This document shows, piece by piece, positions 17,636-38,687 of a DNA stretch of 64,000 nt; position 1 is the stretch's first letter, and each line of letters opens with the position of its first letter. The notes below the pieces were generated by a model. The model did not search any database. It saw only the letters and a list, made by a program, of their open reading frames with translations, and was not told where the DNA came from. The DNA is from Clostridia bacterium (GTDB lineage: Bacteria > Bacillota > Clostridia > Christensenellales > QALW01), in NCBI GenBank assembly GCA_045600145.1, contig JAZRXI010000077.1:36482-100481 (forward strand), read 5' to 3'. The translations under genes and the position numbers were made by a program.

Positions 17636-17650
17636 AATAAAACAAATTTT

Positions 17651-17974
17651 GAGTAGGTCTGTAAGCCGAGTTCTGTATTCGATGACTATTTATCTATTTC
17701 CTGCGTTGCCGCAGGACTTAAGCGATTACATGGGAGCCGGCGAGCAACCGTTAATGCTCCGCTGTCAATCTTGCTTCGGATGGGGTTTACAGGTTCGCTG
17801 AGTCGCCAGAGCGAACGGTGAGCTCTTACCTCGCCTTTCCACCCTTACCGCTTGCGCGGCGGTATATTTCTGTTGCACTTTCCTTAGAGTCGCCTCCACC
17901 GGACGTTATCCGGCATCCTGCTCTGTGAAGCTCGGACTTTCCTCGTATTTTCACCGCAGTCATCCGACCTGCTC
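17651..17974 (-). ncRNA. rnpB: RNase P RNA (M1 RNA/rnpB)
   Basis: Minus strand carries the universal GAGGAAAGUCCGAGC, GGUAAGAGCUCACCG, ACAGAAAUAUACCGCC and the 3' ACAGAACUCGGCUUACAGACCUACUC. The 5' GAGCAGGUC pairs with the 3' GACCUACUC to form P1. No ORF is present. Confidence 0.88.
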
Positions 17975-17982
17975 AAAAAATT

Positions 17983-31384: not shown

Positions 31385-32530
31385 ATGGGAAATCGGCAAG
31401 TATCTACAGAAACCGTAAAGAATATTCTCAGCAAATTCAACATATCCGGCAATGTCTGCACCATAAAAGCAATAAACAGCGGATACATAAATACAACATA
31501 TAAAGTTGAAACCATATCAAATTCCGGTCACATACACAAGTACATACTCCAGCGCATAAATGAGAACGTCTTTCATGATATTGACGGGCTGATGAGCAAT
31601 TATTTGACAGTTACGACGTATCTTGCGGATTTCAAATTGCCCGGAACAAAGTCGAATCAGCATTCGGTACCTATTCTTAAGCTCACAAAAGACGGGAAAA
31701 AGCCGTACTGCAAAACAGAATACGGGTGCTGGCGTGTTACAAAATATATCGGCAGTGTCGTTTCGTTCGATATTCCCGATTCACCGCAAACCTTCTTCTA
31801 CGCGGGACAGGCGTTCGGTTCATTCGTCAAGGCTCTTTCGGGTATCGACCCGAACAAGATTTCCGTGATACTGCCCGATTTTCACAACACATTGAGCCGC
31901 TACAACGACCTGCAAAAAGCGATCGCACTTGACCCATTCGACCGCGTCAAAGATCTGAGCGTCGAGATCACGTCCGTTGAATCGCGCAGAGAGTTTTATC
32001 CGCTCATTTCAAACGCCCTTGAATCCGGCGAAATACCTACAAGGATCTGTCATAACGACTGCAATCTCAACAATATCCTATTTGATAAAAAGACCCGTCT
32101 GCCGGTGGCTATCATCGACCTCGACACAGTAATGCCATCTTCCCCGCTTTATGATTACGGCGACAGTATGCGTGTCGGTACAAATACTGCCAAGGATGAC
32201 GAAAAGGATCTCTCTAAGGTTTCGTGCGATCTTACGCTTTACGAAAAATACGCCGACGGCTATCTTTCCGTGTACGGCTCCGCTTTTACGGAAAAAGAAC
32301 TTGAATTGCTTCCGTATGCTTCAATAATAATCACTTCGGAGGACAGCATACGTTTTCTTATGGATCACATAAACGGCGATACTTATTACATCGTATCGTA
32401 CCCCGGTCAGAATCTTGACCGTGCGCGCACACAACTCAAGCTTGCGTCCGACATGCAGACCAAGCTTCCGCAGATAAAAGATATCCTGAACAAACTTTAC
32501 AGAAAATATGGTTTGAATAAAACACTTTAA
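31385..32530 (+). CDS. Anomeric N-acetylhexosamine 1-kinase-like phosphotransferase (NahK/AmgK-like, APH fold)
   Basis: GYINTTYKV, YILQRIN, ICHNDCNLNNILFD, AIIDLDTVMPSSPLYDYGDSMR and DDEKDLSKV closely parallel my recollection of Bifidobacterium NahK. Confidence 0.7.
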   Translation: MGNRQVSTETVKNILSKFNISGNVCTIKAINSGYINTTYKVETISNSGHIHKYILQRINENVFHDIDGLMSNYLTVTTYLADFKLPGTKSNQHSVPILKLTKDGKKPYCKTEYGCWRVTKYIGSVVSFDIPDSPQTFFYAGQAFGSFVKALSGIDPNKISVILPDFHNTLSRYNDLQKAIALDPFDRVKDLSVEITSVESRREFYPLISNALESGEIPTRICHNDCNLNNILFDKKTRLPVAIIDLDTVMPSSPLYDYGDSMRVGTNTAKDDEKDLSKVSCDLTLYEKYADGYLSVYGSAFTEKELELLPYASIIITSEDSIRFLMDHINGDTYYIVSYPGQNLDRARTQLKLASDMQTKLPQIKDILNKLYRKYGLNKTL

Positions 32531-32542
32531 GAGGAGTTTTTA

Positions 32543-33292
32543 ATGGAAAAGAACGTGCGGGTAATAATCCCCGCGGCAGGAAAGGGCTCGCGTCTGCACT
32601 GTGCCGATATCCCGAAAGCAATGCACAGAATATGCGACCGTCCGCTTATCGACATCGTTTTGGAGAACACATCCTTTATCTCTCCCGAAAACACATACAT
32701 CATCGTAGGTTACAAAAAAGAAAAAATAGTTGAATTTTACGGTAATAAGTATAATTACGTTTTTCAGAATGAACAGTTCGGAACGGGTCATGCCGTAATG
32801 CTGTGCAGTGACGCATTTAAGGATTTCGACGGAACGGTTTTGATAACCTTCGGTGATATGCCGCTTTTCCGCAAAGAAATCCTTAAAAAGCTGTGTGAGC
32901 ATCACAAACGCACCGGGGCTGCCTGCACGTTGCTCACAGCCATTGACCCAAAGCGTAATGATTGGGCGCATATATTGCGCGGCAACAACGGAGAATTTAT
33001 TTCCATAATCGAATACTACGACGCCACGCCGGAGCAATTAAGGGCAAACGAGCTGTTCGCCGGCGCGCTTGTTTTTGACAGTAAAGCGCTCTTTGACGTG
33101 CTTCCTTTGATGAGCTGCTCCAACGCTCTGAACGAATATTATCTTACCGAAGTGCCCGAAATACTCGCAAAGCATGGGCTTAAGATCGAAACGCTCGCAA
33201 CGGATGACAACAACGACCTGTGCGGAGTGAATACACCCGAGGATATGGTGATTTGCGAAGCCGTATACAAGGAACGTATGGGTATCGATTAA
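32543..33292 (+). CDS. Sugar-1-phosphate nucleotidyltransferase (GlmU N-terminal-domain-like / MurU-like), no acetyltransferase domain
   Basis: IIPAAGKGSRL..IPKAMH, QNEQFGTGHAV and FGDMPL are motifs of the GlmU pyrophosphorylase domain. 249 aa. Starts 12 nt after the kinase stop. Confidence 0.7.
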   Translation: MEKNVRVIIPAAGKGSRLHCADIPKAMHRICDRPLIDIVLENTSFISPENTYIIVGYKKEKIVEFYGNKYNYVFQNEQFGTGHAVMLCSDAFKDFDGTVLITFGDMPLFRKEILKKLCEHHKRTGAACTLLTAIDPKRNDWAHILRGNNGEFISIIEYYDATPEQLRANELFAGALVFDSKALFDVLPLMSCSNALNEYYLTEVPEILAKHGLKIETLATDDNNDLCGVNTPEDMVICEAVYKERMGID

Positions 33293-33321: not shown

Positions 33322-33370
33322 CAAAAAAACACTTGACGGAAGCTTTTTCCTCCGCGCAAGTGTTTTTCTT
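33322..33370. terminator. Terminator between the convergent nucleotidyltransferase (+) and STAS (-) genes
   Basis: A-run, imperfect hairpin CACTTGACGGA..TCCGCGCAAGTG, then TTTTT. Confidence 0.55.
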
Positions 33371-33387: not shown

Positions 33388-33681
33388 TCATTCTACCGTA
33401 AGTATGTCCGAAAATCCCGTTATTTCAAAAACTTCCATTATATCAGCGCAAACATTCTTGATGACCATGCTACCCTGCTTGTTCATAGTCTTTTGTGCCG
33501 CAAGCAAAACACGAAGTCCCGCCGAAGAAATGTATTCAAGCTTTTCAAAATCCATTATAAGCTCGGTCACATCGTCAATCGATTTGATTTCAGCCTCAAG
33601 CTGAGGTGCCGTAGTCGTATCAAGTCTTCCTGATACAGTAAGTTCAAGCTGTCCGCATGCTTTTCTTTTTGAAATGTCCAT
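33388..33681 (-). CDS. STAS-domain protein (anti-sigma-factor antagonist family)
   Basis: 97 aa. ..LEYISSAGLRVLL.. carries the phosphorylatable-Ser context. GGAGG lies 9 nt upstream. Confidence 0.8.
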   Translation of the reverse strand: MDISKRKACGQLELTVSGRLDTTTAPQLEAEIKSIDDVTELIMDFEKLEYISSAGLRVLLAAQKTMNKQGSMVIKNVCADIMEVFEITGFSDILTVE

Positions 33682-33696
33682 TATTCTATACCTCCA

Positions 33697-34875
33697 TTAA
33701 AATTCAAGTGTTTCAATTTTATCTAACAACTCAATGATATGGTTCTTATAAACCTCTATCGCTTTTTTGCCTTCCTCGCTCTCAAGTCCCTTACGTCTGA
33801 TGATGCGGCGCAAAAGTCTTGTATAACCTATCAGCATCGCCTTATTCTCGACATCGGCGATCCTTTCGGGGTCATCGGTTCCGAGATAAAGCGGAAGTGA
33901 CTTTTTCCAGATCGACACCGCTGTTTCATACGATATTCCGAGGAACGATTCTGAGACGCTGTGATCAAGCTCAGAAAATCCTATATAAGCGTTGTATACC
34001 GATGCAAGCTCAAACACAGGATGTCCCTGGCAAAGCGTATCCATATCAATAAGAAGCACTTCACCGTTCTGCATCATAACGTTTTTAATATGATAATCGC
34101 CGTGCATCATTCTGTGCACAACCGGCACCGCACATACAAGTGCATTGAGCTTTGACCATTTATCCTCAGGAAGATACGGCTTAAGGAATGCCACCCAATC
34201 AAGCACTACCGCGCGCATATCAGGCATATCCTCGGGCTTTACCTCGGTCGAATGTATCTTTTTCATGAGGTCAACATAAAGATCTACATATTTATCGAGA
34301 TTTTCGGGCTCCTGCTTGATAAGCTTTGAAAACGGAAGCGCATCAAGCAGCTCAAATACCGAGCCGTAGCCCGTTCCGACCTTAACGACATCATATGGAA
34401 TGGCTGTCGGAATTCCGAGCACGAACGCGCGGCGTGCAAGCTCACGCTCTCTGTGTATATCCGGCAAGCTGTCCGGGTTGAAATATACTTTGATAATGGT
34501 ATCGGGATCCAGCCGATAAACCTTACCGTTAGCGCCTTGACCGATGACCTCACAGCCATCTACCGACAATTTGCGGTATGCCTTTTCAACGGTTATCATT
34601 TCGGTGAATCCGGTCATATCGAAAATATCATAAACTTCACTAGAAGCATTGATTATTTTCATATCCTTGGATTCCTTGCGTACTCTGAGAACTATGCGCA
34701 GACCGGCACTTGAAATATATTCAAGCTCATCAACATCCAAGACTATCGTGTCATGCGGTGTTTTGCAGGCATCCACTACCAGCGCTTCTACCTGCGCGGC
34801 ATTGGAAGAATCCACACGCCCTGCAAGCGTAATGACCAGTGCTCCGTTCTCGACTTTTGAATTGACTGTAGCCAT
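33697..34875 (-). CDS. STAS domain fused to a protein-kinase-like (APH/PKL-fold) domain
   Basis: Residues 1-97 are STAS (LEYISSAGLRIVL). The remainder has a Gly-rich loop GQGANGKVYRL..IIKVY, a catalytic HGDYHIKNVMM and a LIDMDT motif. AAGGAGAA lies upstream. Confidence 0.7.
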   Translation of the reverse strand: MATVNSKVENGALVITLAGRVDSSNAAQVEALVVDACKTPHDTIVLDVDELEYISSAGLRIVLRVRKESKDMKIINASSEVYDIFDMTGFTEMITVEKAYRKLSVDGCEVIGQGANGKVYRLDPDTIIKVYFNPDSLPDIHRERELARRAFVLGIPTAIPYDVVKVGTGYGSVFELLDALPFSKLIKQEPENLDKYVDLYVDLMKKIHSTEVKPEDMPDMRAVVLDWVAFLKPYLPEDKWSKLNALVCAVPVVHRMMHGDYHIKNVMMQNGEVLLIDMDTLCQGHPVFELASVYNAYIGFSELDHSVSESFLGISYETAVSIWKKSLPLYLGTDDPERIADVENKAMLIGYTRLLRRIIRRKGLESEEGKKAIEVYKNHIIELLDKIETLEF

Positions 34876-34890
34876 CCTTGATTTCTCCTT

Positions 34891-35451
34891 TTAAGCAAAT
34901 AGTTTATTTAATAATTGCACATATTCCATATATGCTGCATTGTCCTTGAGTGAAGCCGTGTATTCTGCCACGGAGCGGTAATACCATTCGTGCATTTTCT
35001 TATCCTTTTGATGAAAGACTTCGAATGCGGCGTCGCCTCGTTCAAGCCACATGCGGTAAAACGAACGTATATTCGCAAGCTTATCGGCAAGCCACAGTAT
35101 TTTGATGTTTTCGTCATCCGTGTTTTTCAGCACCTCAAGCGATTCTTCCTTGCGGATCTTCCATGTCTGCTCCGCGGGAATATCCTTCCGCTTGTTTTCC
35201 GTTTCGCTTTTGACTAATGCCGCCACATACTCGCCGAAATTTTTGACTATTTCTTCCTCTTTTGCCTTCGTATCCTCCAGCACATCGTGCAGAAGTCCCG
35301 CGATCATAACGTCCTCGTCGCACGTTATGCCGGCTATTATCGAAGCCACCTCCATAGGATGTATTATATACGGTATTTTCCCCGTTTTACGCATCTGCCC
35401 TTCGTGACAGCGTGCCGCAAAGATTATTGCATTGTTAAGTTGTTCGCTCAT
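34891..35451 (-). CDS. HD-domain protein, SpoT/Mesh1-type (p)ppGpp hydrolase-like (small alarmone hydrolase type)
   Basis: AARCHEGQMRKTGKIPYIIHPMEVA and GLLHDVLEDT match the RelA/SpoT hydrolase-domain signature. 186 aa with no synthetase domain. ATGA overlap with the upstream gene. Confidence 0.72.
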   Translation of the reverse strand: MSEQLNNAIIFAARCHEGQMRKTGKIPYIIHPMEVASIIAGITCDEDVMIAGLLHDVLEDTKAKEEEIVKNFGEYVAALVKSETENKRKDIPAEQTWKIRKEESLEVLKNTDDENIKILWLADKLANIRSFYRMWLERGDAAFEVFHQKDKKMHEWYYRSVAEYTASLKDNAAYMEYVQLLNKLFA

Positions 35452-38345
35452 ATTTTTTTCACCAATGTAAGAATGTTCTTGTCGCTCTCATATCTGTATT
35501 GCATATCATCCATAGTCTGCTTAACCATATATATGCCGAGTCCGCCGATGTTGCGTTCCTCTGCCGAAAGGGTGATATCCGGGTCTTCCTTCGTAACGGG
35601 GTTATACGGTGTACCTTCATCAATAAAGGTAAGATGTACGTACGAATCGTTCGTGGCCTTTATCTGTACTGTTACCGGACCCTTGCCGTCCGGATACGCA
35701 AATTTGGCGATGTTGCTGTATATTTCATCGACTGCTATATTCATCTGAACGATCGTCTTCATCGGGCATTCAAGCTTTTCAAGCTCTTGCTCAACAAATT
35801 CCGTTACAGCCGGAATGTCATCTATTTTTGCTTCATCAAAATGTATCTCAGGCACTATATTTCCCATAAACTTTAATCCCACCATAGTAATATCGTCAAA
35901 CTGCGGTGCTTCACCAACGAAAGCATCGACGCTTGCCTTGACCGTTTCACACAACAACTTTACATCAGTAAACCGCTGTGAATTTACGGTTTCAAGCAAT
36001 CTGTCCTCGCCGAAAAGCTGATTGTCGGCATTTGTCGCTTCGGTAACACCGTCCGTATAAAGAAATACTATGTCGCCGGGTGAAAGCTGCATTTCCTGCA
36101 TCTTGTATTTTACGCCATCCATACCCGCAAGCACGAAGCCGACCTTTGAGCGCAAATATTCAAAATTGCCGTCGCCGTGACGCACAAGCGGAGGATTGTG
36201 TCCTGCCGATACATACTGTACCTTGCCCGTATCAAGGTTTACACTTCCCTGCCATGCCGTTACGAACATTCCCGCGTCATTGCCCTCGCAGAGCGCGCTG
36301 TTGCCGGCAGTGAATACTTCATTTATCGGCATATCGGTTTCAGTAAGAGATTTAAGCTCTGTCTTGGCGCGCATCATGAACATTGCCGCCGGTATTCCCT
36401 TACCTGAGACGTCGGCTACAAGGAAATTAAGGATGTTATGGTGACTCGTATAGAAATCATAGAAATCTCCGCCGACCTCTTTTGCCGTATTCATCATTGC
36501 GAAAATTTCAAAATCCTTTCGCTTCGGGAAGACATTCGGCAATGCTGAGCTTTGGATGCTCTTTGCAAATTCAAGCTCCTTATCAATTCTTGCCGACGCC
36601 GCTTCAATATAATTTTTAAGAGTAGTGACCGTTGAGTTTATGTCGTCCGAAAGCGACGCAAATTCCTCGTTCGACCTTACGTTGACAGTTTCATCAAGGT
36701 CGCCGCCCGTGATTTTCTGCAACGAACAGTTTATCGACTTTATCTGATTTACGACAGCGTTCTTAATAAGGAAGTAAATGAACGCAAACAACAGCGCAAA
36801 GACGAGCACCTCCATGAACGTGTTTACATACATCGTGGTGGTGAATTGATTCATTGCCTCATTTTTCGGATACGCGGCAACGACGTAATATCCCTCGGTC
36901 ATATCGCAGCTACAAAAGCATGGCGTTTTGTTGATTTCGAACTCAAACACACTGCCATCGCAGTTTTCCAATATTTCAGCCGAGTACGTTGATAAGTCCT
37001 GAGTGTCGAAGTCCTCCGGAGCGCTGACGATGTCGAAATTTTTATCAAATATAAGCACATATCCCGTTTCGCCGACGTGACGGTTTTTTGTGATATCTAT
37101 TACCTGCTCTGCCATTCGTGCCTGAAACAGAAGCGTATCGTACCCCACTTGAATGAAACCGTCGTCGGTCTTGATACCCGCATATTTGCGCGAGATCGTC
37201 GGGTCAGAGGTTATCGCACCGTATTCCTGAACAAACTGCTGAGTGTCTCCGAGCAACACAAGGAATTCCGCCGCCTGCGGTCCGGAGTGCATATCAAAAC
37301 CGATATATTCGAGATTCGTGCTTTCGACGATTATACCGTCTTTGCTGATGACGCTTATTTCGGAAAGCTCATATTTCGCGGCAAGGCTTTTTATATTGTT
37401 CTTTGTTTTTTCCTTTTGCACCATTCTCGCAATTTGCAAAATATTGGCGTCTGCCGCGTCGCCTATATCCGCTTTTGTTTCGGCGGTAGCCAACGTAAGT
37501 AACTGTTCACGCTGGTTTACGGATATCGACGTTTGAAGTGTATATACAAAATACGTAGTGAGCGCAAATGCGACAACTATCGTTATAAGCAGTGACCTTT
37601 GTACGATTTCCGATATGCGCATGCGCTGTTTTCTCTGTGCCTTTTTGCCTTCGGAGATCATAACAATAAAAATCGTTGCTATTGCAGACGCGCAGGCATT
37701 CGCAGTGATCATCGGCAGTGAGCACGCCTTTACGACCTCTATCGCCTTATCGGGCGTTGCCATGTTCGTAATGAATACCATCGTCAAGTGGAATACCTCC
37801 ATTACGATGCCTATCGCGAATGAAAGCACCCAACCGGGCTTTTTATTCTCAAACATGAACTTGCGGAGCAATGCCGCGTAAATACCTGCTATAGCCGTTG
37901 AAAGACTGCACGCCACTCTCGTAAAGGTACCAACGCCCCAAGCGACGGCTATCCAGCGTTCAACACCGCCGATAAGACCGGCGATTATACCGGCAGGCGC
38001 ACCGAACAGCAAGCCTGCGGTCAGCACCGCGGCATCACGACAGTTTATCTGCGCTCCGTTTATCGGTATGCCGTATTCGGTACCGAGCACGGCAAGTGCG
38101 CCGAAAATAATTCCATAAAGTATCTGCTTGACCGCACCGGGCATTTTGCCGCACACGGTCTTTTTGTCTATCCAATATAATATTACACTGACAGCCGCGG
38201 GCAACAGTGACACCGTGCCGAGCCTTACATACGGATTTCCAAGCATTGCTAAAATAAAATTCCAAATATCGCTGAAAAACTGTATCAATAGATATGCCCC
38301 TTTTCGAGTCCGGTAATGATTTCTTTTCAGAAAAAAACCGAGCAT
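35448..38345 (-). CDS. Membrane sensor protein: 5TMR-LYT-like N-terminus, Cache-like extracytoplasmic domain, HAMP, PP2C (SpoIIE/RsbU-type) phosphatase, C-terminal RsbW/SpoIIAB-type GHKL kinase domain
   Basis: 965 aa. Polytopic N-terminus (about aa 35-230). A roughly 240-aa loop between TM helices at about 251-270 and 509-527. HAMP-like region at 528-582. PP2C motifs GGDFYDF, VADVSGKG, YTDGVTEA, DDITMV. C-terminal ..NIGGLGIYMV.. G-box. Start is uncertain because there is no clear SD. Confidence 0.75.
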   Translation of the reverse strand: MLGFFLKRNHYRTRKGAYLLIQFFSDIWNFILAMLGNPYVRLGTVSLLPAAVSVILYWIDKKTVCGKMPGAVKQILYGIIFGALAVLGTEYGIPINGAQINCRDAAVLTAGLLFGAPAGIIAGLIGGVERWIAVAWGVGTFTRVACSLSTAIAGIYAALLRKFMFENKKPGWVLSFAIGIVMEVFHLTMVFITNMATPDKAIEVVKACSLPMITANACASAIATIFIVMISEGKKAQRKQRMRISEIVQRSLLITIVVAFALTTYFVYTLQTSISVNQREQLLTLATAETKADIGDAADANILQIARMVQKEKTKNNIKSLAAKYELSEISVISKDGIIVESTNLEYIGFDMHSGPQAAEFLVLLGDTQQFVQEYGAITSDPTISRKYAGIKTDDGFIQVGYDTLLFQARMAEQVIDITKNRHVGETGYVLIFDKNFDIVSAPEDFDTQDLSTYSAEILENCDGSVFEFEINKTPCFCSCDMTEGYYVVAAYPKNEAMNQFTTTMYVNTFMEVLVFALLFAFIYFLIKNAVVNQIKSINCSLQKITGGDLDETVNVRSNEEFASLSDDINSTVTTLKNYIEAASARIDKELEFAKSIQSSALPNVFPKRKDFEIFAMMNTAKEVGGDFYDFYTSHHNILNFLVADVSGKGIPAAMFMMRAKTELKSLTETDMPINEVFTAGNSALCEGNDAGMFVTAWQGSVNLDTGKVQYVSAGHNPPLVRHGDGNFEYLRSKVGFVLAGMDGVKYKMQEMQLSPGDIVFLYTDGVTEATNADNQLFGEDRLLETVNSQRFTDVKLLCETVKASVDAFVGEAPQFDDITMVGLKFMGNIVPEIHFDEAKIDDIPAVTEFVEQELEKLECPMKTIVQMNIAVDEIYSNIAKFAYPDGKGPVTVQIKATNDSYVHLTFIDEGTPYNPVTKEDPDITLSAEERNIGGLGIYMVKQTMDDMQYRYESDKNILTLVKKI

Positions 38346-38362
38346 TTATAAATATTTATATT

Positions 38363-38391
38363 ATTGTATATTAAGATACGAAAAAAGTCAA
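38363..38391 (-). promoter_or_regulatory. Candidate sigma-A promoter of the four-gene signalling operon
   Basis: Minus strand reads TTGACT, 17-nt spacer, TACAAT. The -10 element ends 17 nt before the annotated ATG. Confidence 0.45.
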
Positions 38392-38687
38392 TCACAAAAG
38401 TGCATATAAATAAAATTTATTGCGTTTTTCAGTGCCACCGGCATGAAACCGTGCCGTCACCGTTCATTTTGAGCATAACGCCGTAAGGTGCGCACATTTT
38501 CACAAGTCTTTCAATGAACGGCGAATCTGCCGACGCGATGTGTGGAAGCCCCTCGTTGAGCTTATCGTCCGTTCCTGACAGCTCTACCGGCAGAAGCGTA
38601 AGCTCCGTCAAAACACCGTCATTACTTTTTTATCCTTGAGCAAAGAGTTTTGCAAAATATTGGTGACACAAAAAACGCTCAAATATC

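What the first reader, a model, noticed from the sequence alone, without database searches (positions are those of the whole stretch)
35448..38345. Opposing enzymes fused in one polypeptide: PP2C phosphatase and RsbW-type kinase behind two different membrane input modules
The 965-aa ORF reads, in order:
- a polytopic 5TMR-LYT-like block (about aa 35-230);
- a loop of about 240 aa bounded by TM helices (Cache-like);
- a HAMP-like segment;
- a complete PP2C domain (GGDFYDF, VADVSGKG, YTDGVTEA, DDITMV; about nt 35868-36563);
- a GHKL HATPase_c_2-like domain (NIGGLGIYMV; about nt 35451-35843).
In canonical modules the STAS kinase and the STAS phosphatase are separate proteins that are regulated independently. 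Fusing them implies a single sensor that toggles between phosphorylating and dephosphorylating its STAS partners.
The N-terminus has no Shine-Dalgarno site, and the -10 element ends 17 nt from the ATG, so the true start or leader also needs checking.
Basis: partly seen in the sequence, partly recalled or inferred. Interest (0 to 1): 0.6.

Follow-up and report, generated by a model that had tools for sequence, protein, structure and literature searches.

The report
Membrane sensor with fused STAS phosphatase-kinase
This is a real membrane sensor protein that carries both the phosphatase and the kinase for small STAS switch proteins; such fusions are already known (HsbR, SypE, Rv1364c), so it is not surprising, but it heads a widespread, unstudied four-gene cassette in gut anaerobes.

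Summary
The ORF at 35448..38345(-) encodes 5TMR-LYT, a dCache-like extracytoplasmic domain, HAMP, a PP2C (SpoIIE-type) phosphatase and an RsbW-type GHKL kinase (HATPase_c_2). Both catalytic motif sets are invariant or nearly so across 120 homologues.

- **Not a frameshift artefact.** All 120 listed homologues (of more than 3,000) have the same three core domains at 931-946 aa.
- **Start codon.** The annotated ATG 38345 is very probably not the start. Comparison with the closest relative points to TTG 38288 behind a conserved AAAAGGGG Shine-Dalgarno site, giving 946 aa. That explains the missing SD.
- **The fusion is not new.** The best sequence and fold match in the PDB is the fused RsbU-RsbW fragment of M. 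tuberculosis Rv1364c. HsbR, CrsR and SypE are characterised bifunctional STAS kinase/phosphatases.
- **The fusion is common.** It recurs behind many different sensor modules, and at least 594 species genomes across several phyla encode a relative. Split versions also exist (Treponema).

The less ordinary part is the context. A conserved operon pairs the sensor with a small alarmone hydrolase (HD_4), a STAS-APH-kinase fusion and a lone STAS. At least 44 protein clusters fuse HD_4-STAS-APH into one polypeptide. No sigma factor is adjacent.

Verdict: an uncharacterised member of a known kind, with a possibly new output.

The parts
38363..38391 (-). Sigma-70-like promoter, TTGACT-17-TACAAT (10 of 12 matches)
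   Evidence: The sequence is nearly identical in the closest relative, L001. Function is inferred; the 5' end has not been mapped.
38289..38362 (-). Probable 5' leader. It contains the in-frame ATG 38345 used in the 965-aa gene call.
   Evidence: this stretch carries a 10-nt indel relative to L001, so the reading frame is not conserved; in L001 the equivalent ATG opens a 14-codon ORF that ends in TGA before the real start. No Rfam family matches here.
38297..38304 (-). Shine-Dalgarno-like AAAAGGGG, 8 nt upstream of TTG 38288
   Evidence: It is conserved as GAAATGAGG before the TTG start of the 946-aa orthologue P0002 in L001.
35448..38288 (-). Revised CDS of the sensor (946 aa, TTG start). The alternative start, ATG 38246, gives 932 aa. 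The public gene call of 965 aa starts at 38345.
   Evidence: Homologues are 931-946 aa. Most begin at the position of Met34 of the 965-aa call (ATG 38246); the closest relative P0002 begins at Leu20 (TTG 38288).
37665..38135 (-). 5TMR-LYT polytopic membrane module
   Evidence: Pfam PF07694, E 4e-28, found in 50 of 50 family members. There are weak hits to ECF S-component families. The region is all-helical in the AF2 model at pLDDT about 75-96.
36765..37592 (-). TM helix, dCache-like extracytoplasmic domain (about 238 aa), TM helix
   Evidence: Hydropathy. dCache_1 is sub-threshold here and found in 16 of 50 homologues. AF2 secondary structure. Foldseek hits to the Tlp3 (6w3o) and Mlp24 (6iot) ligand-binding domains, E about 5e-6.
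36543..36764 (-). HAMP-like helix-loop-helix and helical linker into the PP2C domain
   Evidence: HAMP PF00672 in 36 of 50 homologues. NCBIfam histidine-kinase models match aa 485-599. AF2 helices 475-527 and 541-582 in 946-aa numbering.
35868..36542 (-). PP2C/PPM phosphatase domain, SpoIIE/RsbU type (Pfam core 35868..36428)
   Evidence: PF07228, E 1e-47. Invariant GGDFYD, ADV.GKG, YTDG and FDD.T in 120 homologues. PDB sequence hits are Rv1364c, SiaA and RssB; Foldseek also matches SpoIIE.
35457..35831 (-). RsbW/SpoIIAB-type GHKL serine kinase domain (HATPase_c_2)
   Evidence: PF13581, E 3e-20. Conserved in 946-aa numbering: N-box D854-E855..N859, G1 D890-x-G892, G2 G915-G916-L917-G918. It aligns with the RsbW domain of Rv1364c. 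No HisKA/DHp domain is found.
34891..35451 (-). Small alarmone hydrolase-like HD_4 protein (186 aa). Its ATG overlaps the sensor's TGA (ATGA).
   Evidence: PF13328, E 9e-24, and TIGR00691 N-terminal hydrolase part. PDB hits to small alarmone hydrolases, Lmo0812 and MESH1. Overlap seen.
33697..34875 (-). STAS-APH fusion (392 aa): an N-terminal STAS with acceptor Ser56 and an APH-fold kinase
   Evidence: Pfam STAS + APH, and TIGR02172. Invariant S55-S56-A57-G58-L59, H258-G259-D260...N265 and D277-x-D279. AF2 pLDDT 93.7, pTM 0.81. Foldseek finds aminoglycoside, MTR and capreomycin kinases.
33388..33681 (-). Stand-alone STAS protein (97 aa), acceptor Ser53
   Evidence: Pfam STAS and TIGR00377 above its cutoff. 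Aligns without gaps to SpoIIAA and RsbV, so Ser53 corresponds to SpoIIAA Ser58. 38% identical to the STAS domain of the STAS-APH protein.
33322..33366 (-). Intrinsic terminator closing the four-gene operon
   Evidence: terminator scan; hairpin plus U-run, -27.3 kcal/mol, z = -4.7 against shuffles.

Best explanation
The gene encodes a membrane-bound, bifunctional regulator of a partner-switching module.

**Shown by sequence and structure prediction**
- One polypeptide of about 946 aa, probably starting at TTG 38288.
- It carries two separable input modules: a 5TMR-LYT intramembrane module and a dCache-like extracytoplasmic domain flanked by TM helices.
- These are followed by HAMP, a helical linker, a SpoIIE/RsbU-type PP2C phosphatase and an RsbW/SpoIIAB-type GHKL serine kinase.
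- All metal-binding and ATP-binding motifs are conserved.

**Inferred mechanism**
- The GHKL domain phosphorylates the conserved serine of the two co-transcribed STAS domains: Ser53 of the lone STAS and Ser56 of the STAS-APH protein.
- The PP2C domain removes that phosphate.
- Ligand or membrane signals are passed through HAMP and the coiled-coil linker and mainly gate the phosphatase, as described for RsbU-type PPM phosphatases. The kinase runs by default.
- The sensor therefore sets the STAS phosphorylation level, as HsbR does for HsbA and SypE for SypA.

**Inferred output.** The output is probably not an adjacent sigma factor. It is the STAS-fused APH-fold kinase and the small alarmone hydrolase that travels with it and is fused to it in other lineages.
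For: **Domains and motifs**
- Domains.
- Catalytic motifs invariant or nearly so in 120 homologues at 58-86% identity.

**Structure**
- Full-length AF2 model, pLDDT 84.5.
- The best fold match is the RsbU+RsbW fragment of Rv1364c, 3ke6 (E 3e-16, 373 aligned columns). Cache ligand-binding domains are also hit. 3ke6 is also the best sequence hit.

**Genuine fusion**
- All 120 listed homologues carry all three core Pfam domains at 931-946 aa.
- 59 of 84 related genomic loci have PP2C-GHKL in one ORF.
- The Treponema loci L067 and L074 have the same two domains as adjacent genes, each with its own SD and ATG.

**STAS partners**
- 46 of the 59 fused loci have a STAS or STAS-APH gene in the fetched flanks.
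- The acceptor serine aligns with SpoIIAA Ser58 and the corresponding serine of RsbV and is invariant in the STAS-APH family.

**Cassette**
- The same four genes occur in L001-L004, L006, L008, L010, L015, L020 and others.
- HD_4 never occurs without STAS-APH.
- HD_4-STAS-APH is a single protein in at least 44 clusters.
- STAS-APH also lies next to a SpoIIE-only gene (L085), an HATPase_c_2-only gene (L087) or a shorter fused sensor (L088, L089).

**Operon structure.** Promoter, ATGA overlap, short gaps with SDs, and a terminator.

**Precedents for the mechanism.** HsbR/CrsR (PMC6482189), SypE (PMC3610818), Rv1364c (PMC9138534), and linker-gated PPM phosphatases including HAMP-PPM (PMC12143880).
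Against: - No biochemistry has been done. Neither kinase nor phosphatase activity, nor either STAS substrate, has been tested.
- A fused GHKL domain need not be an active kinase. A paper on Rv1364c is titled 'Loss of kinase activity...' (reference list of PMC9138534).
- dCache and HAMP are below Pfam thresholds in this particular protein.
- The full-length model has pTM of only 0.56, so interdomain geometry and the exact number of TM helices are uncertain.
- The idea that the signal gates the phosphatase rather than both activities rests on analogy only.
- The link to the APH kinase and the alarmone hydrolase rests on gene neighbourhood and fusions, not on function.
- A distant sigma-factor target is not excluded.
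Confidence: 0.72

Rival explanations
1. The C-terminal GHKL domain is mainly a binding module of the anti-sigma type, not a working kinase. It sequesters a sigma factor or another partner encoded elsewhere. Unphosphorylated STAS, produced by the PP2C domain, displaces that partner, as proposed for HsbR/CrsR with RpoS.
For: HsbR and CrsR GHKL domains bind RpoS (PMC6482189). Loss of kinase activity has been reported for Rv1364c (title cited in PMC9138534). There are weak NCBIfam similarities to RsbW and SpoIIAB anti-sigma factors.
Against: The N-box, G1 and G2 ATP-binding motifs are invariant or nearly so across 120 homologues, which argues for ATP binding. No sigma factor gene lies in any of the neighbourhoods inspected. 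The RsbW and SpoIIAB equivalog scores are far below their cutoffs (30 against 145; 22 against 135). The two roles are not mutually exclusive.
Confidence: 0.15
2. The fusion is an assembly or sequencing artefact (a lost stop codon or a frameshift), and PP2C and GHKL are really two genes.
For: Split arrangements do exist in relatives: L067 and L074 have separate genes, and L014, L017 and L057 have overlapping ORFs in different frames.
Against: The ORF is uninterrupted in the window. All 120 listed homologues, from many independent assemblies, have the same length and domain content. 59 of 84 related loci have the fused form. The PP2C-GHKL junction is short and modelled with good confidence.
Confidence: 0.02
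3. The protein is an unorthodox histidine kinase: the GHKL domain would be the catalytic domain of a two-component sensor, and the PP2C domain an accessory.
For: LytS-type 5TMR-LYT, Cache and HAMP are typical histidine-kinase inputs. HATPase_c (PF02518) matches weakly (E 0.008). Weak NCBIfam histidine-kinase hits cover the HAMP region.
Against: No HisKA/DHp domain or phospho-acceptor histidine region was found. HATPase_c_2 scores far better than HATPase_c (73 against 17 bits). No response regulator is in the operon, whereas two STAS genes are. The best structural match is the RsbW domain of Rv1364c.
Confidence: 0.02

Closest known systems
Mycobacterium tuberculosis Rv1364c (MursiF), PDB 3ke6
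   Same: A PP2C (RsbU-type) domain is directly followed by an RsbW-type GHKL domain in one polypeptide. It is the best sequence hit (E 1e-10, spanning both domains) and the best fold hit (E 3e-16). It acts on a STAS domain (PMC9138534).
   Different: Rv1364c is cytoplasmic, has a PAS input, and carries its STAS substrate fused at the C-terminus. It regulates SigF. The window protein is polytopic, has 5TMR-LYT + dCache + HAMP inputs, and its STAS partners are separate genes. Sequence identity is only about 20%.
Pseudomonas aeruginosa HsbR / Shewanella oneidensis CrsR
   Same: REC-PP2C-kinase/anti-sigma proteins that both phosphorylate and dephosphorylate a single STAS protein (HsbA or CrsA). 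The input domain decides which activity dominates (PMC6482189).
   Different: The input is a cytoplasmic receiver domain fed by a phosphorelay, not a membrane sensor. The outputs are RpoS, FlgM/FliA and the diguanylate cyclase HsbD. Membership by sequence was not tested here; the proteins are not in the PDB and were not retrieved.
Vibrio fischeri SypE
   Same: One protein carries an RsbW-like serine kinase and a PP2C phosphatase acting on the STAS protein SypA. The output is not a sigma factor (PMC3610818).
   Different: The domain order is kinase-REC-PP2C, it is cytoplasmic, and it controls the Syp biofilm polysaccharide.
Bacillus subtilis RsbU / RsbW / RsbV and SpoIIE / SpoIIAB / SpoIIAA
   Same: The same three protein families and the same phospho-serine position are involved. 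The PP2C belongs to the SpoIIE Pfam family. SpoIIE is also a polytopic membrane phosphatase.
   Different: There the kinase and the phosphatase are separate proteins, the kinase is an anti-sigma factor, and a sigma factor is encoded in the operon. NCBIfam equivalog cutoffs for RsbW, SpoIIAB and SpoIIE are not reached.
Pseudomonas aeruginosa SiaA (with SiaB/SiaC)
   Same: It is the top NCBIfam hit (E 6e-17, aa 577-826) and a PDB hit (6k4e). SiaA is a membrane-bound HAMP-PP2C phosphatase.
   Different: The score of 61 bits is far below the equivalog cutoff of 700. The SiaB kinase is a separate protein, and the substrate SiaC is not the STAS proteins found here (background from PMC7647112 title and abstract, and general knowledge).
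LytS/BtsS-type histidine kinases (5TMR-LYT)
   Same: They share the 5TMR-LYT membrane module (PF07694, E 4e-28).
   Different: Their output is a histidine kinase, not PP2C + GHKL serine kinase. They have no additional Cache domain. What 5TMR-LYT senses here is unknown.

Membership tests
PPM/PP2C phosphatases, SpoIIE/RsbU subfamily (Pfam PF07228) | Profile match above the gathering score | tested here: met
   162.9 bits against a cutoff of 25, E 1e-47, covering 6-191 of 192 profile positions. Found in 50 of 50 family members.
PPM/PP2C phosphatases, SpoIIE/RsbU subfamily (Pfam PF07228) | Metal-binding aspartates in the conserved motifs (GGD.YD, D.xG.G, TDG, DD) | tested here: met
   D608, D611, D626, G629, D746, G747, D798 and D799 (946-aa numbering) are invariant in 120 homologues.
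PPM/PP2C phosphatases, SpoIIE/RsbU subfamily (Pfam PF07228) | PPM fold | tested here: met
   Foldseek hits to Rv1364c, RssB, SiaA, SpoIIE, RsbX, tPphA and PstP, probability 1.00.
PPM/PP2C phosphatases, SpoIIE/RsbU subfamily (Pfam PF07228) | Mn2+/Mg2+-dependent phospho-Ser phosphatase activity | not testable with these tools
   Needs an enzyme assay.
RsbW/SpoIIAB-type GHKL serine kinases (Pfam PF13581, HATPase_c_2) | Profile match above the gathering score | tested here: met
   73 bits against a cutoff of 27.4, E 3e-20, covering 3-127 of 127 profile positions. Found in 50 of 50 members.
RsbW/SpoIIAB-type GHKL serine kinases (Pfam PF13581, HATPase_c_2) | Bergerat ATP-binding motifs: N-box Asn, G1 (DxG) and G2 (GxxG) | tested here: met
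   E855 is invariant and N859 is at least 90% conserved (invariant in the 50-sequence subset). D890 is invariant, G892 is at least 90% conserved, and G915-G916-L917-G918 is invariant.
RsbW/SpoIIAB-type GHKL serine kinases (Pfam PF13581, HATPase_c_2) | No DHp/HisKA domain, which distinguishes these kinases from histidine kinases | tested here: met
   No HisKA family appears in the Pfam scans of the protein or of 50 homologues.
RsbW/SpoIIAB-type GHKL serine kinases (Pfam PF13581, HATPase_c_2) | Orthology to RsbW or SpoIIAB (NCBIfam equivalog cutoffs) | tested here: not met
   NF003144 RsbW: 30.4 bits against 145. TIGR01925 SpoIIAB: 22.5 bits against 135. The domain is of the same superfamily type but is not an orthologue.
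RsbW/SpoIIAB-type GHKL serine kinases (Pfam PF13581, HATPase_c_2) | Binds and inhibits a sigma factor | not tested
   No sigma factor gene is adjacent in the window or in the inspected relatives. Binding cannot be tested here.
Bifunctional partner-switching regulators (HsbR / CrsR / SypE / Rv1364c type) | PP2C and GHKL serine kinase on one polypeptide | tested here: met
Bifunctional partner-switching regulators (HsbR / CrsR / SypE / Rv1364c type) | A cognate STAS protein with the conserved acceptor serine, encoded alongside | tested here: met
   Two STAS domains lie in the operon. Ser53 and Ser56 align with SpoIIAA Ser58. 46 of 59 fused loci have a STAS gene in the fetched flanks.
Bifunctional partner-switching regulators (HsbR / CrsR / SypE / Rv1364c type) | Cytoplasmic REC or PAS input domain | tested here: not met
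   The input here is 5TMR-LYT + dCache-like + HAMP. The input domain differs among known members and is not essential to the mechanism.
Bifunctional partner-switching regulators (HsbR / CrsR / SypE / Rv1364c type) | Both activities demonstrated on the same STAS substrate | not testable with these tools
   Needs biochemistry or genetics.
5TMR-LYT (Pfam PF07694) | Profile match above the gathering score | tested here: met
   98.5 bits against a cutoff of 24.6, E 4e-28. Found in 50 of 50 members.
dCache_1 (Pfam PF02743) | Profile match above the gathering score | tested here: not met
   17.3-17.7 bits against a cutoff of 45. 16 of 50 homologues match at E<=0.01, best E 5.6e-6.
dCache_1 (Pfam PF02743) | Extracytoplasmic location between two TM helices; a long N-terminal helix plus two PAS-like alpha/beta modules | tested here: met
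   Hydropathy. AF2 secondary structure at pLDDT about 73-93. Foldseek hits to the Tlp3 and Mlp24 dCache ligand-binding domains and to McpB models.
HAMP (Pfam PF00672) | Profile match; helix-connector-helix immediately after the last TM helix | tested here: inconclusive
   There is no Pfam hit in this protein at E<=0.01. 36 of 50 homologues match. The AF2 model shows helix, a 13-residue loop, then helix after the TM. NCBIfam histidine-kinase models align to aa 485-599.
Small alarmone hydrolases (RelA/SpoT HD, Pfam HD_4): the neighbouring gene | Profile match, and similarity to solved small alarmone hydrolases | tested here: met
   PF13328, 84 bits against a cutoff of 27. PDB hits 7qoe, 4yf1, 7qoc and MESH1. 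Hydrolysis of (p)ppGpp was not tested.

The most novel reading that the evidence does not exclude
The sensor is the input of an undescribed but very widespread partner-switching cassette of gut and rumen anaerobes. Its output is not a sigma factor but a small-molecule phosphorylation cycle.

- The phosphorylation state of a STAS domain would gate the APH-fold kinase fused to it.
- A RelA/SpoT-type small alarmone hydrolase is physically coupled to that kinase. It is co-transcribed here and fused as HD_4-STAS-APH in at least 44 protein clusters.
- The hydrolase would perform the opposing reaction, in the way hydrolase and synthetase are paired in Rel proteins.
- This would link extracellular or membrane sensing to a nucleotide or metabolite signal through partner switching.
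Probability: 0.2. Interest if true: 0.7.

Novelty: new member of a known kind. Interest (0 to 1): 0.35.

Why it matters
The fused phosphatase-kinase does not change the understanding of partner switching. HsbR, CrsR, SypE and Rv1364c already established that one polypeptide can set the phosphorylation state of a STAS protein.

The value of this locus is practical:
- It defines a large, uncharacterised family. More than 3,000 proteins matched at E<=1e-5, and at least 594 species-level genomes encode a relative. Most are uncultured Clostridia; Coriobacteriia, Spirochaetes, Elusimicrobia and the Planctomycetes-Verrucomicrobia group also appear.
- In this family a membrane sensor with two input modules is hard-wired to STAS phosphorylation.
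- It shows that STAS-APH kinase fusions and a small alarmone hydrolase are the conserved partners of such sensors.

If the APH kinase and the hydrolase turn out to be the regulated outputs, this would be a new output class for partner switching. It could also connect to alarmone or nucleotide signalling in gut anaerobes.

The analysis also corrects the public 965-aa gene call to a 946-aa product.

Tried and rejected
1. **Frameshift or two genes: rejected.** The ORF is uninterrupted and the fused form is conserved in all 120 listed homologues.
2. **ATG 38345 as the start: rejected.** Homologue N-termini, the 10-nt indel and the upstream mini-ORF in L001 argue against it. ATG 38246 is kept as a minor alternative to TTG 38288.
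3. **Leaderless mRNA or a riboswitch in the leader: not supported.** With the revised start, the leader from the predicted promoter is about 65-70 nt, and Rfam finds nothing there.
4. **Histidine-kinase reading: rejected.** There is no HisKA domain, and HATPase_c_2 scores far above HATPase_c.
5. **Orthology to RsbW, SpoIIAB, SpoIIE, SiaA or RssB: rejected.** All NCBIfam equivalog cutoffs are missed by a wide margin.
6. **Source contig of the window protein:** not on record. The organism is therefore inferred only as an uncultured Clostridia-type gut bacterium, from its relatives.
7. **Literature searches that found nothing:** 'TIGR02172' and '5TMR-LYT' + 'PP2C'. The original 5TMR-LYT description (Anantharaman & Aravind 2003, recalled from memory) is not held in the library. 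The STAS review PMC8256260 contains none of the six fusion-related terms searched, including HsbR and Rv1364c.
8. **First MAFFT run timed out** and was repeated with faster settings.
9. **The search of protein representatives was not used.** A count of hits would not separate fused from unfused proteins.

Full report
**1. The observation**

The ORF at 35448..38345 on the minus strand (965 codons) is real. Pfam places three domains far above their gathering scores:
- 5TM-5TMR_LYT at aa 71-227 (E 4e-28)
- SpoIIE-type PP2C at aa 640-826 (E 1e-47)
- HATPase_c_2 at aa 839-963 (E 3e-20)

A hydropathy scan finds helices at aa 252-270 and 509-527, which bracket a loop of about 238 aa. dCache_1 matches that loop only below threshold (about 17 bits against a cutoff of 45). 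Three further lines support a double-Cache sensor followed by HAMP:
- 16 of 50 family members hit dCache_1 and 36 of 50 hit HAMP at E<=0.01.
- The AlphaFold2 model built on 120 homologues (mean pLDDT 84.5, pTM 0.56) shows a long stalk helix, two alpha/beta modules, a second TM helix and a helix-loop-helix.
- Foldseek matches the dCache ligand-binding domains of Tlp3 and Mlp24.

This includes:
- the PP2C metal-binding aspartates (GGDFYD, ADVxGKG, YTDG, FDDxT);
- the GHKL N-box (DE..SN), G1 (DxG.PYNP) and G2 (GGLG).

**2. One gene, not two**

The homologue search returned more than 3,000 proteins at E<=1e-5. All 120 listed have the same three core Pfam domains and lengths of 931-946 aa, and they come from many independent assemblies. 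A frameshift artefact is excluded.

I built profile HMMs from the family's own domains and scanned 84 related loci. PP2C and GHKL are in one ORF in 59 of them. In two Treponema MAGs (L067, L074) the same two domains are adjacent genes. There the GHKL gene has its own Shine-Dalgarno site and ATG two to four codons after the PP2C stop. Fused and split states are therefore both natural, and the GHKL domain is the equivalent of a stand-alone RsbW-type kinase.

**3. The start codon**

TTGACT-17-TACAAT lies at 38391..38363, 17 nt before ATG 38345, and that ATG has no SD. But the ATG is almost certainly not the start:
- Most homologues begin at the position of Met34 (ATG 38246).
- The closest relative (P0002, 86% identity, 946 aa) begins at the position of Leu20, which is TTG 38288 in the window.
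- Aligning the two upstream regions shows a nearly identical promoter, then a poorly conserved stretch with a 10-nt indel that breaks the frame, then a conserved GAAA(A/T)G(G/A)GG Shine-Dalgarno site followed by TTG.
- In the relative, the ATG equivalent to 38345 opens a 14-codon ORF that stops before the real start.

The best reading is a leader of about 65-70 nt and a 946-aa product from TTG 38288. ATG 38246 (932 aa) is a minor alternative. The public gene call of 965 aa (P0001) is over-extended. No Rfam family matches the leader.

**4. The surroundings**

The gene heads a compact four-gene operon that ends in a strong terminator at about 33322..33366 (-27.3 kcal/mol, z = -4.7).

- **Gene 2 (34891..35451).** Its ATG overlaps the sensor's TGA. 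It encodes a 186-aa HD_4 protein that matches the hydrolase half of RelA/SpoT. Its closest solved structures are small alarmone hydrolases, Lmo0812 and MESH1.
- **Gene 3 (33697..34875).** It is a STAS domain fused to an APH-fold kinase (TIGR02172 family).
  - The P-loop, the HGDxHxKN catalytic loop and the IDMD metal site are invariant in 120 homologues.
  - Its AlphaFold model is very confident (pLDDT 93.7, pTM 0.81).
  - The kinase half is closest to small-molecule kinases: APH(3')-Ia, APH(2'')-IVa, methylthioribose kinase and capreomycin phosphotransferase.
- **Gene 4 (33388..33681).** It is a 97-aa STAS protein above the TIGR00377 cutoff, 38% identical to the STAS of gene 3.

Both STAS domains carry LEYISSAGLR. 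The second serine (Ser53 and Ser56) aligns without gaps to SpoIIAA Ser58 and to the corresponding serine of RsbV, and it is invariant.

**5. Conservation of the cassette**

- The same four genes accompany the sensor in L001-L004 at 58-86% identity, although the flanking genes differ.
- Of the 59 fused loci, 46 have a STAS or STAS-APH gene in the fetched flanks and 21 have STAS-APH.
- Fourteen have HD_4, and HD_4 never appears without STAS-APH.
- The association holds when the sensor has a different N-terminus, for example in L037, L039, L043, L047, L055 and L070.
- In L055, HD_4, STAS and APH form one ORF.
- A search with that protein found at least 44 clusters of about 575-aa triple fusions at 54-100% identity. 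One cluster has 1,114 members.
- Starting from STAS-APH, the neighbour is a SpoIIE-only gene (L085), an HATPase_c_2-only gene (L087), or a shorter 5TMR-LYT-SpoIIE-HATPase_c_2 sensor plus a STAS gene (L088, L089).
- No sigma factor is adjacent in any of these loci.

**6. Modularity of the inputs**

Relatives exist with only the Cache-HAMP part (L019, L023, L029, L034) and with only 5TMR-LYT-HAMP and no kinase (L054, L063, L064, L066, L069, L077, L080, L081). Others have MCP-like PDC+HAMP, dCache_1+HAMP or unrecognised N-termini in front of SpoIIE+HATPase_c_2. The two membrane modules of the window protein are thus separable building blocks placed in series.

Relatives come mostly from gut and rumen Clostridia (Acutalibacteraceae, Oscillospiraceae, Lachnospiraceae, Ruminococcus). 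They also come from Coriobacteriia, Erysipelotrichaceae, Spirochaetes, Elusimicrobia, Planctomycetes, Kiritimatiellia, Victivallales, Chloroflexi and Synergistota.

**7. Most likely mechanism**

Shown: the domain content, the conserved catalytic motifs, the co-transcribed STAS partners with the acceptor serine, and the conserved cassette.

Inferred:
- The GHKL domain phosphorylates Ser53 and Ser56, and the PP2C domain dephosphorylates them.
- Signals from the Cache domain and/or the 5TMR-LYT module pass through HAMP and the helical linker and gate the PP2C domain. This follows the coiled-coil linker and dimer mechanism described for RsbU and predicted for HAMP-, PAS-, REC- and GAF-PPM phosphatases (PMC12143880).
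- The kinase acts by default.
- The STAS phosphorylation level in turn controls the fused APH-fold kinase and the associated alarmone hydrolase.

I put about 0.7 on the bifunctional STAS kinase/phosphatase role. My confidence in the nature of the output is much lower.

**8. Comparison with what is known**

The fusion of opposing enzymes is established:
- **Rv1364c** is PAS-PP2C-kinase-STAS (PMC9138534, PMC12143880). Its RsbU+RsbW fragment (3ke6) is the best sequence hit (E 1e-10, covering query aa 604-892) and the best fold hit (E 3e-16, 373 aligned columns) for this protein.
- **HsbR and CrsR** are REC-PP2C-kinase/anti-sigma proteins. In HsbR the receiver's phosphorylation state decides whether HsbA is phosphorylated or dephosphorylated (PMC6482189).
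- **SypE** is kinase-REC-PP2C and acts on the STAS protein SypA, with a non-sigma output (PMC3610818).

The window protein differs in three ways. Its input is membrane-bound, with 5TMR-LYT + dCache + HAMP. It has two STAS partners. Its apparent outputs are different. It does not reach any NCBIfam equivalog cutoff (RsbW, SpoIIAB, SpoIIE, SiaA, RssB), so it is not an orthologue of a named protein. Where databases name its relatives, they call them only 'SpoIIE family protein phosphatase'.

**9. Novelty and scores**

For the finding as written (opposing enzymes in one polypeptide), this is a new, uncharacterised member of a known kind. A specialist in partner switching would not be surprised.

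It is the conserved association, and in many lineages the fusion, of a small alarmone hydrolase with a STAS-gated APH-fold kinase under the control of such sensors. My searches for TIGR02172 and for related terms found no literature on it, though the library is incomplete.

I score overall interest at 0.35. I give 0.2 probability to the reading that this is a new output class for partner switching, which would deserve about 0.7.

Noticed in passing
window 38420..38615 (-), including the 60-aa 'ORF' 38429..38611: About 190 nt are roughly 90% identical to the 3' end of the PGA_cap (CapA-like) gene that sits directly upstream of the sensor in the closest relative (L001 4574-5869). The homology stops abruptly. 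In the window the upstream neighbour is an RraA-like gene instead. This is a gene remnant marking a rearrangement or deletion breakpoint just upstream of the cassette's promoter.
   Followed up: partly
L055 2506..4254; proteins P0241-P0283 and P0289: HD_4 (small alarmone hydrolase), STAS and APH kinase are fused in one protein of about 575 aa. At least 44 protein clusters at 54-100% identity show this, and one has 1,114 member sequences. This fusion links the window's genes 2 and 3 functionally.
   Followed up: yes
L067 836..988 and L074 3877..4029 (Treponema MAGs): PP2C and GHKL are separate adjacent genes here. The PP2C gene stops right after the DDxTM motif region, and the GHKL gene starts 2-4 codons later with its own SD and ATG. 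This is the natural split counterpart of the fusion. L014, L017 and L057 have overlapping ORFs in different frames, which may be splits or assembly frameshifts.
   Followed up: partly
L054, L063, L064, L066, L069, L077, L080, L081: A sister group of 5TMR-LYT-HAMP-PP2C proteins lacks both the Cache domain and the GHKL domain. They have no STAS or GHKL gene within about 6 kb. Their substrate is unknown.
   Followed up: no
window 31385..32530 (+) and 32543..33292 (+): A second, unrelated APH-family kinase (381 aa) is followed by a MobA-like/NTP_transferase nucleotidyltransferase (249 aa), convergent with the end of the cassette. The pair resembles a small-molecule kinase plus nucleotidyltransferase activation pathway of the LicA/LicC type. 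That comparison is from memory and was not tested.
   Followed up: no
window 17646..17975 (-): Bacterial RNase P RNA class A (Rfam RF00010, 264 bits). It was the only Rfam hit in the window.
   Followed up: no
window 37665..38135 (-), the 5TMR-LYT region: There are weak but consistent Pfam similarities to ECF-transporter S components (ECF-ribofla_trS, E 9e-5, in 35 of 50 homologues; ECF_trnsprt). L088 and L089 also have an ECF S-component gene immediately upstream of a related cassette. This may hint at a small-molecule binding role for the 5TMR-LYT module.
   Followed up: no
window 38246..38288 (-), first 14 codons of the revised CDS: The N-terminal extension between TTG 38288 and Met34 is shared only with the closest relative. 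It is modelled as an extra hydrophobic helix (residues 2-17, pLDDT about 77-82). Other homologues start at the Met34 position, so the N-terminal topology may differ within the family.
   Followed up: partly
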